Source of the DNA: a virus
Taxonomy: Duplodnaviria > Heunggongvirae > Uroviricota > Caudoviricetes
Virus record (IMG/VR): IMGVR_UViG_2850784384_000005
Direction: 5' to 3' (one strand)
Length of the DNA: 17,981 nucleotides
Shown here: positions 9,056-9,462 of the stretch, in pieces
Layout of the letters: the number at the start of each line of letters is the position of its first letter
Numbering within the stretch: the stretch's first letter is position 1
The notes under the pieces: model-generated
The model's input: only the letters and a program-made list of their open reading frames with translations
Told to the model about the DNA's origin: nothing
Database searches by the model: none
Program-made: the position numbers and the translations under genes

Positions 9056-9077
9056 AAAAAGCCGGATTGCTCCGGCT
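9056..9077 (-). terminator. Rho-independent terminator (AGCCGGA-gcaa-TCCGGCT plus U-tract) after the 74-aa gene
   Basis: Perfect 7-bp GC-rich stem with a U-run on the minus strand. Identical to the element at 9417-9440. Confidence 0.6.
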
Positions 9078-9096
9078 GTATGTGCTGTATGGGTGC

Positions 9097-9321
9097 TCAG
9101 TCTCTGATCCCTTTCAGAAATTCTATCAATGCATCTGTCTGTTCAGGATTTACTGCCAGCATTTCACCGGATAGCGCGCAACGAACAAAACCATGATGAT
9201 CCTTTTCAATCAGCGCCCCCGTTTCCAGAAATGCGCGGTAATCAGTGATATTCATCGTCTCCATGTTGTCAGCATGGTATTTATCACGCTGTTTAAGTAT
9301 CTCATCAAATTTCATCGGCAT
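9097..9321 (-). CDS. Hypothetical 74-aa protein in a moron-like unit (own ribosome-binding site, bracketed by two identical terminators)
   Basis: ATG at 9321 preceded by AGAGGAAAA, with terminators immediately up- and downstream. No family recognised. Confidence 0.5.
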   Translation of the reverse strand: MPMKFDEILKQRDKYHADNMETMNITDYRAFLETGALIEKDHHGFVRCALSGEMLAVNPEQTDALIEFLKGIRD

Positions 9322-9416
9322 TGCGTTTTCCTCTGTTGTGTCTGTTTGTTTCAGATAGTAACTATGCCGGACCGTGACGAAAAGCCAGTAGTGCTCCATA
9401 CCGTTTCAAATGACGC

Positions 9417-9440
9417 AAAAAAAGCCGGATTGCTCCGGCT
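9417..9440 (-). terminator. Rho-independent terminator, second copy of the same 24-bp hairpin element
   Basis: Same stem and loop as 9056-9077 with an A7/U7 run. Lies 22 nt after the stop of the 53-aa ORF. Confidence 0.6.
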
Positions 9441-9462
9441 GCGTGGTGTGGTTCTGATATTC

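What the first reader, a model, noticed from the sequence alone, without database searches (positions are those of the whole stretch)
9056..9441. Moron-like 74-aa gene bracketed by two copies of the same terminator
A 24-bp terminator element (AAAAAGCCGGATTGCTCCGGCTG) occurs twice, 360 bp apart, flanking a single small gene with its own ribosome-binding site. A duplicated terminator around one gene is the classic moron architecture, and morons often carry fitness or anti-phage cargo. The protein has no family I recognise.
Basis: partly seen in the sequence, partly recalled or inferred. Interest (0 to 1): 0.55.

Follow-up and report, generated by a model that had tools for sequence, protein, structure and literature searches.

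The report
Optional small gene in phage satellite
A 74-residue gene bracketed by two identical terminators is a real, optional cassette of a capsid-making phage satellite of E. coli; it encodes an unstudied, satellite-only small acidic protein found just before the capsid genes in about half of such satellites, so it looks more like a long-standing satellite accessory gene than a recently acquired moron.

Summary
On the minus strand both copies are hairpin plus U-run terminators around a 74-aa ORF (9321-9097) with a GAGG ribosome-binding site.

The window is a decaying E. coli capsid-forming PICI of the EcCIEDL933 type, next to phoQ. The cassette lies between the replication/SSB-PerC genes and the capsid operon.

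It is a discrete optional unit. Of 360 complete E. coli genomes with this capsid leader, 216 carry it. About 144 end just after a single terminator; the three such sites inspected are precise empty sites. A filled/empty pair also exists beside a different capsid module.

The moron reading is only partly supported:
- No promoter signal exceeds background.
- Relatives at 32-42% identity occupy the same slot in other genera: primase/helicase, then this gene, then the capsid gene. They do so without a duplicated terminator.
- The family is absent from 50,697 phage genomes.

The protein is acidic and under purifying selection (dN/dS 0.1-0.2). Its confident model matches no known fold, Pfam family or PADLOC defence model.

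My best guess, inferred only, is a satellite-specific protein-binding factor aimed at the helper phage or the host.

The parts
9417..9441 (-). Terminator T1: hairpin 9440-9423 (AGCCGGA-GCAA-TCCGGCT) plus U-run. It ends the early/replication transcript after the SSB'-'PerC ORF. The upstream copy of the 23-bp repeat is 9419-9441.
   Evidence: -15.7 kcal/mol. Conserved in L001-L004 and L007. In the EDL933-type allele the loop is GAAA instead of GCAA, still a GNRA loop.
9322..9418 (-). 97-nt leader of the 74-aa gene, with Shine-Dalgarno GAGG at 9333-9330. The last 41 nt are invariant between the alleles compared. The best promoter-like match (TTTTCG-17-TACTAT, 9383-9355) scores no better than background.
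   Evidence: No stable RNA structure (z-score +1.05).
9097..9321 (-). 74-aa ORF, a phrog_1957 family member: a small acidic alpha/beta protein (pI 5.0).
9050..9078 (-). Terminator T2: the identical hairpin (9077-9060) plus tail UUUUUGUUAUU. It ends the 74-aa gene and is the junction with the capsid-operon leader. The downstream copy of the repeat is 9056-9078.
   Evidence: -14.1 kcal/mol. It is the only copy left in empty islands.
8797..9049 (-). Structured leader of the capsid operon. It contains an 18-nt conserved motif TTGTAAATTATTTGTTCG (9047-9030), a hairpin with 17-bp arms at 8934-8887 (-29 kcal/mol), and a hairpin at 8833-8804 followed by U7 directly before the capsid AUG. That last hairpin buries the AGGA ribosome-binding site.
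   Evidence: (I3, I14). No Rfam family.
9463..9624 (-). 53-aa ORF left by a deletion of roughly 500 bp that fuses the start of SSB to the end of PerC. It is the gene upstream of T1.
   Evidence: Relatives carry a 411-bp SSB gene plus a 249-273-bp PerC gene.
7639..8796 (-). HK97-type major capsid gene, the first gene of the packaging operon downstream of T2. In this copy it is interrupted by an in-frame stop at 7969-7971.
10215..10502 (-). Probable iteron-rich replication origin (TCTACC/GGTAGA repeats) downstream of the primase gene. In several other genera the family gene directly follows the intergenic gap after the primase/helicase gene, and that gap carries iteron-like repeats in two of them.
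   Evidence: iteron-like repeats in L029 and L030.

Best explanation
The feature is a 363-bp optional cassette of an E. coli capsid-forming phage-inducible chromosomal island (cf-PICI, EcCIEDL933 type).

Read on the minus strand, the order is:
- primase, origin, two small genes, SSB/PerC;
- terminator T1;
- a 97-nt leader with a ribosome-binding site;
- the 74-aa gene;
- an identical terminator T2;
- a structured 260-nt leader, then the capsid, protease, portal, terS and terL genes.

The gene belongs to an old, unnamed, satellite-restricted family of small acidic proteins (phrog_1957; no matching fold). In roughly half of HK97-type capsid-forming satellites across Gamma- and Betaproteobacteria this family sits between the replication module and the capsid module.

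Shown:
- The two terminator copies are the exact boundaries of a presence/absence polymorphism.
- They are also a mosaic junction. The cassette interior is 90-92% identical between the window and the L003 allele, while the adjacent capsid leader is 98.5% identical.

Inferred, step 1 (expression): the cassette has no convincing promoter of its own. The gene is therefore probably expressed mainly when induced early transcription reads through T1. Such read-through would be AlpA-dependent and possibly antiterminated. T2 and a further hairpin plus U-run at the capsid start would keep the packaging operon silent otherwise.

Inferred, step 2 (function):
- The protein is acidic and lacks DNA-binding features.
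- It is optional, and it evolves faster than the capsid.
- Its presence shows no link to the replication or packaging module type in nine inspected islands.
- It is absent from phages.
Together these suggest it acts by binding another protein, most plausibly a helper-phage or host factor, to favour the satellite.

The duplicated terminator is E. coli-specific. It is best seen as a by-product of module shuffling: the SSB-PerC-terminator block now lies between two genes that are adjacent in Xenorhabdus. It supplies 23-bp direct repeats at the ends of the indel.
For: Anatomy.

Identity of the element:
- Pfam gives primase (D5_N), capsid, S78 protease and portal.
- It also gives integrase, AlpA, HNH, head completion protein, connector, terS and terL.
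- The region is 99.9% identical to the STEC1587 island. The same gene occurs in EDL933 itself, the strain that carries the prototype EcCIEDL933.

Optional cassette with exact boundaries:
- Alignments.
- Counts: 541 of 5426 genomes carry the gene. 216 of 360 with this capsid leader are filled.
- Capsid-anchored IMG/VR sample: 11 of 20 E. coli-type loci and 24 of 55 loci from other capsid lineages (64-71% capsid identity) carry the family.
- Mosaic divergence.

Old positional conservation:
- Contexts in Klebsiella, other Enterobacteriaceae and Xenorhabdus.
- 21 species-level loci.
- The next large downstream ORF is a PF05065 capsid in 10 of 10 loci tested. The previous large ORF is a primase/helicase of different types in 7 of 7.
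- The window's 92-aa protein is homologous to the Xenorhabdus 77-aa gene that directly precedes the family gene there (E 8e-14).
- No upstream terminator flagged and no bracketing direct repeat found outside E. coli.

Real, constrained protein:
- dN/dS 0.09-0.24.
- 31 representative clusters in 1.84 billion proteins.
- AF2 pLDDT 87.7.
- pI 4.6-5.9 for 22 of 24 members, the other two 6.07 and 6.71.

No known fold or family:
- No Pfam, NCBIfam or PADLOC match.
- Not related to PerC.

Other points:
- Satellite-restricted: no tblastn hit in 50,697 phage genomes.
- No promoter above background.
- Presence shows no link to module type in nine inspected islands: filled and empty states occur with primase, RepA-helicase and DUF927 replication genes and with two capsid module types.
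Against: - The function is wholly inferred; no experiment or homology touches it.
- A weak or activator-dependent promoter in the invariant 41-nt part of the leader cannot be excluded.
- Read-through or antitermination at T1 is untested. The idea that AlpA-type proteins can act as antiterminators comes from my recollection of Pseudomonas aeruginosa AlpA, and no paper in the searched library links this to PICIs.
- The slot is a published accessory hotspot, and islands lacking the family carry diverse other genes there. That fits a cargo (moron) reading.
- Within-species dN/dS is low, so there is no sign of an arms race at that scale.
- The single terminator in empty sites has T2-type flanks on both sides. 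That fits deletion or insertion equally, so the direction of the event is unresolved.
Confidence: 0.55

Rival explanations
1. True moron. On this reading the cassette is an autonomous accessory transcription unit carrying defence, counter-defence or host-fitness cargo. It would be expressed from the quiescent island and insulated by terminators on both sides.
For: - Precise presence/absence polymorphism.
- Lower GC and GC3 than the neighbouring genes.
- Location in the PICI accessory region downstream of pri, where Tai immune genes were found (PMC11364771), and in the variable region before the packaging operon that is 'expected to encode immune systems' (10.1101/2025.02.11.637232).
- The same slot holds diverse other ORFs when the family is absent.
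- The invariant 41 nt of the leader could hide a non-consensus promoter.
Against: - No promoter above background.
- No PADLOC, Pfam or NCBIfam hit.
- Absent from 50,697 phage genomes, whereas the known satellite cargo Tai is carried mostly by phages.
- The same family holds the same position across many genera. Where the gap to the capsid gene is long (up to about 1.9 kb), there is room for additional genes between it and the capsid.
- In L012 and L016 it lies 10-19 bp after the preceding gene, with no terminator flagged in between.
Confidence: 0.2
2. Late-switch factor. On this reading the protein is a regulator or co-factor that turns on or licenses the capsid/packaging operon immediately downstream. 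It could, for example, bind RNA polymerase to allow passage of T2 and of the hairpin plus U-run at the capsid start. Its position would be analogous to late activators or antiterminators encoded just upstream of phage late operons.
For: - It lies directly upstream of the capsid operon, most often about 220-235 bp before the capsid start.
- Terminator-like structures stand in series before the capsid AUG.
- An 18-nt motif conserved across genera sits next to the gene.
- The family occurs with three different capsid module types.
- EcCIEDL933, the mobilised prototype, carries the gene.
Against: - About 40-55% of islands with near-identical leaders and packaging genes lack it.
- The protein is acidic and has no DNA-binding motif or fold.
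- Other genes may sit between it and the capsid leader where the gap is long.
- Published mutagenesis of the 9-gene packaging module did not, by my inference, include it.
Confidence: 0.15
3. Replication accessory protein. On this reading it acts at the origin or with SSB and the helicase, as the last gene of the replication module.
For: - In several other genera it is the first gene after the primase/helicase and its downstream intergenic gap, which carries iteron-like repeats in L029 and L030.
- In E. coli it lies near the SSB gene.
Against: - It occurs with at least four replication protein types: AAA_25/RepA helicases, D5_N/DUF5906 primase-helicases, Toprim/zinc-ribbon primase-helicases and DUF927 proteins. 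Where iterons were seen they differ in sequence.
- It is optional beside each replication type inspected in E. coli.
Confidence: 0.06

Closest known systems
Capsid-forming PICIs (cf-PICI), prototype EcCIEDL933 (10.1101/2022.09.08.507074)
   Same: - The window encodes integrase, AlpA, primase and origin. It also encodes an HK97 capsid, S78 protease, portal, head completion protein, connector, HNH, terS and terL, with no tail or lysis genes.
- It sits next to phoQ, as the island does in EDL933.
- The 74-aa gene itself is present in EDL933 (WP_001132080, 91.6% nucleotide identity).
   Different: - This copy is degraded: IS4-family and IS1 transposases, an SSB-PerC fusion and a capsid nonsense codon.
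- The 74-aa gene is not described in the cf-PICI papers held here. The only 'hypothetical' gene they tested (1792) is, by my inference from the '9-gene packaging module', the ORF between HNH and terS.
Phage morons (promoter-gene-terminator units inserted between conserved genes of lambdoid phages)
   Same: - A single small gene present in some elements and absent from near-identical relatives at the same site.
- A terminator immediately downstream.
- Lower GC than its neighbours.
- Placement next to the head genes.
   Different: - No recognisable promoter.
- The host element is a satellite, not a phage.
- The family is old and positionally conserved across genera.
- The upstream terminator belongs to the preceding gene.
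- The family is not found in phages at all.
PICI accessory/immune hotspot downstream of pri (Tai systems; PMC11364771)
   Same: The same genomic region, between the replication gene and the packaging module. Its content varies between islands.
   Different: - TaiEcA is 26 kDa, and most Tai homologues are carried by phages.
- The 74-aa family is small, acidic and unrelated to any PADLOC model.
- It is satellite-restricted, and long gaps downstream of it leave room for extra genes alongside it.
Late-operon switches encoded just upstream of head genes (lambda Q-type antiterminators; small RNA polymerase-binding co-activators such as T4 gp33). Recalled from general knowledge.
   Same: Position at the end of the early region, directly before a terminator-guarded structural operon. 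Small and acidic, like some RNA polymerase-binding factors.
   Different: No sequence or fold similarity. Absent from about half of otherwise equivalent islands.

Membership tests
Intrinsic (Rho-independent) terminator | GC-rich stem-loop immediately followed by a U-run on the transcribed strand | tested here: met
   Both copies have a 7-bp stem (5 G-C pairs), a GCAA loop and a run of 5-7 U on the minus strand. Fold energies are -15.7 and -14.1 kcal/mol, z-scores -3.0 and -4.0.
Intrinsic (Rho-independent) terminator | Actually stops transcription in vivo | not testable with these tools
   Needs Term-seq, 3' RACE or reporter assays.
Moron | Gene present in some elements and absent at the same site in close relatives | tested here: met
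   Empty sites L005, L006, L008 and L017 against filled L001-L004 and L007. 216 of 360 genomes are filled.
Moron | Own promoter upstream of the gene (autonomous transcription unit) | tested here: inconclusive
   The standard scan finds no sigma-70-like site. The best relaxed match (TTTTCG-17-TACTAT) scores at the background rate of 7.6 hits per kb. A weak or activator-dependent promoter cannot be excluded in silico.
Moron | Own terminator downstream | tested here: met
   The T2 hairpin begins 19 nt after the stop codon.
Moron | Nucleotide composition different from flanking genes | tested here: met
   Gene GC is 43.1% and GC3 0.43. Capsid, protease and portal are 50-56% and 0.55-0.66. The adjacent small early genes are also fairly AT-rich (46-48%).
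Moron | Sporadic, recently acquired cargo not tied to the element's own architecture | tested here: not met
   Homologues at 32-42% identity occupy the same replication-to-capsid slot in Klebsiella, Enterobacter, Serratia, Pectobacterium, Proteus, Xenorhabdus, Gilliamella and others.
Moron | Expressed from the repressed (uninduced) element | not testable with these tools
   Needs transcriptomics of EDL933-type strains with and without helper induction.
cf-PICI | [quoted passage not shown] No tail or lysis genes. Size about 10-18 kb. | tested here: met
   Pfam hits. Synteny with EcCIEDL933. About 16 kb from the 93-aa ORF next to phoQ to the cut integrase gene, including two IS elements.
phrog_1957 | Full-length profile match | tested here: met
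   E = 2.4e-40, residues 1-74 against profile positions 1-74 of 82. The family is annotated 'unknown function'.
Known anti-phage defence proteins (PADLOC-DB) | Profile match to any model | tested here: not met
   No family at E<=1.
PerC family (PF06069) | Sequence or profile similarity | tested here: not met
   No Pfam hit for the 74-aa protein. hhalign of the family against the island PerC alignment gives probability 0.4%.
Tai/Ati tail-assembly interference and counter-defence (PMC11364771) | Homology to TaiEcA (26 kDa) or to the small phage-encoded AtiEcA | tested here: not met
   The size is incompatible with Tai. tblastn of two family members finds nothing in 50,697 phage genomes, although all five Ati-like genes found were in prophages. 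Caveat: I did not confirm that phi80 is in that collection, and fold-level similarity to Ati was not tested.

The most novel reading that the evidence does not exclude
The phrog_1957 family is a factor specific to capsid-forming satellites, with a previously unseen small alpha/beta fold. It would bind a helper-phage or host protein to tilt the contest towards the satellite. Possible modes are holding back helper head assembly or packaging so that helper tails are free for satellite capsids, or neutralising a host or prophage block on tail supply. Its gain and loss between two terminator repeats would tune satellites to different helpers.
Probability: 0.25. Interest if true: 0.65.

Novelty: new member of a known kind. 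Interest (0 to 1): 0.4.

Why it matters
cf-PICIs are a recently recognised and widespread class of satellites that make their own capsids and take only tails from helper phages. The region between their replication and packaging modules is thought to carry accessory or immune genes.

This work shows that the commonest occupant of that slot is a single unstudied family:
- It is present in about half of the sampled HK97-type capsid-forming satellites.
- It is present in 541 of 5426 complete E. coli genomes, including EDL933.
- It is restricted to satellites.
- It has no known fold.

That makes it a concrete, cheap target for deletion and pull-down experiments in an established system (EcCIEDL933 with helper HK106).

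The terminator-bounded indel also illustrates how short terminator repeats act as module junctions in satellite mosaicism. The finding does not overturn any current view.

Tried and rejected
- Megablast of the region against phage genomes: no match. tblastn of the window protein and of a distant member against phages: no match.
- Structure prediction with 4 near-identical sequences gave a poor model (pLDDT 59). It was replaced by a 24-sequence model (pLDDT 87.7).
- A profile search of PDB sequences gave one marginal hit, N.BspD6I residues 84-121 at E = 0.004. No other evidence supports it, so I did not use it.
- Permissive Pfam and NCBIfam scans of all 24 family members gave only scattered weak hits such as pectate lyase, DUF7002 and Nhe. 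I rejected them.
- A weak BLASTP similarity to PerC (E = 0.03) was rejected by hhalign.
- A zinc-finger late activator of the Ogr/Delta type was considered and rejected. The window protein has one Cys, and Cys and His are not conserved.
- A structural or scaffold role was rejected. Islands with near-identical packaging modules lack the gene.
- I could not settle whether the published 'hypothetical gene 1792' is this gene. No supplements are held. The '9-gene module' wording suggests it is the HNH-terS ORF.
- A literature search for the protein accessions and phrog_1957 found nothing. A search for AlpA plus antitermination plus PICI also found nothing.
- No Rfam family lies in the leaders.
- I could not decide whether empty sites arose by deletion or filled sites by insertion. 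The junction sequences fit both.

Full report
**1. Observation**

It occurs exactly twice in the 17,981-bp window, at 9056-9078 and 9419-9441. Start-to-start spacing is 363 bp. No match appeared in any of 200 dinucleotide-preserving shuffles, even with 3 mismatches allowed.

The relevant strand is the minus strand. There each copy reads AGCCGGA-GCAA-TCCGGCT followed by a T-run, and both are picked up by the terminator scan. The hairpins fold at -15.7 and -14.1 kcal/mol, with z-scores of -3.0 and -4.0.

Between the copies lies one minus-strand ORF, 9321-9097, of 74 aa. GAGG sits 8 nt upstream of its ATG. A longer 100-aa reading from the ATG at 9399 has no ribosome-binding site, and distant homologues start at the 74-aa position.

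**2. What the surroundings are**

Pfam and annotated relatives identify the window as a capsid-forming PICI of the EcCIEDL933 type, inserted next to phoQ. The chromosomal phoQ gene is at 1-1461 on the plus strand. Everything else is on the minus strand, in this order:
- integrase (cut by the window end) and AlpA;
- an IS4-family transposase and an IS1 transposase;
- DUF4222 and a D5_N primase;
- an iteron-rich probable origin at 10502-10215;
- two small genes of 92 and 101 aa;
- a 53-aa SSB'-'PerC fusion ORF;
- T1, the 74-aa gene and T2;
- the HK97 capsid, S78 protease, portal, head completion protein, connector, HNH, terS and terL genes, then a 93-aa ORF.

The 74-aa gene is present in EDL933 itself (WP_001132080). 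This copy of the island is decaying. It carries two IS elements, the SSB-PerC deletion fusion, and a Trp-to-stop change in the capsid gene. The 74-aa ORF is intact.

**3. The cassette is a discrete, optional unit**

Relatives with different replication modules (primase, RepA helicase, DUF927) carry the same arrangement of T1, leader, gene and T2.

Other islands have PerC, a single terminator, then the same capsid leader and no gene. These are L005, L006 and L008 (alignment).

A second background exists with a lambda-like capsid plus decoration module. It too has a filled form (L007) and an empty form (L017), with the same terminator-to-terminator boundary.

Counts in 5426 complete E. coli genomes:
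- The gene is present in 541.
- This capsid type is present in 361.
- Of 360 genomes with this capsid leader, 216 continue into the gene. About 144 stop just after the single terminator.

Between the window and the L003 allele, the cassette interior is 92.4% (gene) and 89.7% (leader) identical. The adjoining capsid leader is 98.5% identical. The terminators are therefore mosaic junctions.

The single copy in empty sites carries T2-type flanks. That fits either precise loss or insertion, and I could not determine the direction.

**4. Is it a moron?**

For:
- It is optional and terminator-bounded.
- It has lower GC: 43% and GC3 0.43, against 50-56% and 0.55-0.66 in the head genes.
- It lies where the PICI literature places an accessory/immune region, downstream of pri and before the packaging operon (PMC11364771; 10.1101/2025.02.11.637232).

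Against:
- No promoter signal exceeds background in the 97-nt leader.
- The upstream terminator also serves PerC and remains in empty islands.
- The gene is old and positionally conserved.

On the last point, an exhaustive HMMER search of 1.84 billion representative proteins found 31 clusters. A profile search extended the family to Klebsiella, Citrobacter, Enterobacter, Raoultella, Salmonella, Xenorhabdus and Hyphococcus.

In Enterobacteriaceae and Xenorhabdus islands, members at 32-38% identity lie directly before a leader of about 220-230 bp and the capsid gene. They follow an upstream small gene with only 10-19 bp between them. A terminator lies after them and none was flagged before them.

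In K. pneumoniae the gene precedes a ClpP-capsid fusion module.

A one-genome-per-species scan gave 21 loci from Enterobacterales, Orbales, Burkholderiales and Pseudomonadales. In those loci:
- The next large downstream ORF is a PF05065 capsid in 10 of 10 tested.
- The previous large ORF is a primase/helicase of different types in 7 of 7 tested.
- The gap from primase/helicase to the gene is 194-296 bp. That gap carries iteron-like repeats in L029 and L030.
- The gap to the capsid gene varies from 231 to 1607 bp.

The window's 92-aa protein is homologous to the Xenorhabdus 77-aa protein that directly precedes the family gene there (E 8e-14). In E. coli, therefore, the (101-aa)/SSB/PerC/terminator block lies between genes that are adjacent in Xenorhabdus. 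That offers an origin for the E. coli-specific terminator duplication, which was not seen in other genera.

In a capsid-anchored IMG/VR sample the family is present in 11 of 20 E. coli-type loci. It is present in 24 of 55 loci from other capsid lineages at 64-71% capsid identity. When it is absent, the slot holds diverse other ORFs or nothing.

The family is therefore the commonest occupant of a variable slot. It is frequent, optional and long-standing.

**5. The protein**

- It has no Pfam, NCBIfam or PADLOC match. It matches phrog_1957, of unknown function.
- It is unrelated to PerC.
- dN/dS is 0.09-0.24.
- The family is acidic: pI 4.6-5.9 for 22 of 24 members, the other two at 6.07 and 6.71.
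- Its conserved core reads DHHGF.R..LSGE.LA.N.EQ.D.LIE.L.
- With 24 sequences AlphaFold gives pLDDT 87.7. The model has three short helices, a three-stranded sheet and a long C-terminal helix.
- No relative exists in 50,697 phage genomes.
- Capsids are 66-69% identical across these genera. The small protein is only 32-42% identical, so it evolves faster.

**6. How it most likely works**

Shown: the terminators delimit the unit and the mosaic junction. The gene is real, constrained, optional and satellite-restricted. In nine inspected islands its presence shows no link to the replication or packaging module type.

Inferred, first step: without a detectable promoter, the gene is probably transcribed mainly by read-through of T1 when the island's early operon is induced. 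Induction of these islands requires AlpA (10.1101/2022.09.08.507074). That some AlpA-type proteins act as antiterminators is my recollection from Pseudomonas, and nothing in the library supports it for PICIs. T2, the 8934-8887 hairpin, and the hairpin plus U7 that buries the capsid ribosome-binding site would keep the packaging operon tightly off.

Inferred, second step: an acidic 74-aa protein with no nucleic-acid-binding features most plausibly works by binding a protein of the helper phage or the host, for the satellite's benefit. It is not needed for the satellite's own replication or capsid genes. It is also confined to capsid-forming satellites.

The rivals are scored in the report sections: a true moron or defence cargo (0.2), a late-operon switch (0.15) and a replication accessory (0.06).

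**7. Comparison with what is known, and novelty**

[quoted passage not shown] The cassette works partly like a moron but fails or leaves open two defining features. The own-promoter test is inconclusive, and the sporadic recent acquisition test is not met.

The published mutagenesis of the EcCIEDL933 packaging module mentions a 'hypothetical gene 1792'. From the '9-gene module' wording I infer that this is the HNH-terS ORF and not this gene. I could not verify that.

I found no literature on this family. I rate it a new member of a known kind: an uncharacterised accessory gene in a known satellite hotspot. Interest is moderate.

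Noticed in passing
window 7969-7971 (capsid gene 7639-8796, minus strand): An in-frame stop replaces the conserved Trp in ...YRKNAVW.... It splits the major capsid gene into ORFs of 291 and 109 aa. Relatives have an intact 385-aa protein, so this island copy probably cannot make capsids.
   Followed up: yes
window 9463-9624 (minus strand): The 53-aa 'PerC' ORF is a fusion of the N-terminus of SSB with the C-terminus of PerC. It was created by a deletion of about 500 bp relative to islands that carry a 411-bp SSB gene plus a 249-273-bp PerC gene.
   Followed up: partly
window 14858-16204 and 12597-13100 (minus strand): An IS4-family transposase and an IS1 transposase are inserted in the early/regulatory part of the island, between AlpA and the primase. 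With the capsid stop codon, this marks a decaying satellite.
   Followed up: partly
window 8797-9049 (minus strand): The capsid-operon leader is highly structured. It has a hairpin with 17-bp arms (8934-8887, -29 kcal/mol). A second hairpin (8833-8804) is followed by U7 directly before the capsid AUG and sequesters the AGGA ribosome-binding site. This looks like a terminator or translational gate. No Rfam family matches.
   Followed up: partly
window 9030-9047; L012-L014 7251-7268: The 18-nt motif TTGTAAATTATTTGTTCG, just downstream of the 74-aa-family gene, is identical in E. coli islands and in Enterobacteriaceae islands whose neighbouring gene is only about 38% identical at protein level. 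TGTTC-like repeats spaced about 10 bp apart follow it. It is a candidate operator, promoter or packaging-related site.
   Followed up: partly
window 10215-10502 (minus strand): There is a dense array of TCTACC/GGTAGA iterons around an AT-rich stretch immediately downstream of the primase gene. This is the probable satellite replication origin. Iteron-like repeats of different sequence occur in the equivalent gap of L029 and L030.
   Followed up: partly
window 7608-7629 (minus strand): A terminator-like hairpin (GAAGGGGCT-AAAA-AGCCCCTTT plus a T-rich tail) lies between the capsid and protease genes. It is possibly an attenuator that raises capsid protein stoichiometry.
   Followed up: no
L001 9513-9626; L004 8845-8960: RefSeq annotates tiny 'trigger factor' CDSs or pseudogenes that overlap the PerC 3' end and lie next to terminator T1. 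These look like spurious gene calls.
   Followed up: no
L018 7001-7273; L019 4303-4575 (Hyphococcus sp. and a Logan contig): A distant family member (40% identity over 74% of the query) lies in an alphaproteobacterial satellite-like element with capsid genes. It is on the opposite strand, between terL and the capsid gene, and overlaps a called HNH gene.
   Followed up: no
L009-L011 (K. pneumoniae) 7001-10073: This is a smaller satellite type. The family gene is followed by a reverse-oriented 170-aa gene, a 64-aa gene and a 637-aa ClpP-protease/capsid fusion protein. No portal or terminase was found in the stretch seen.
   Followed up: no
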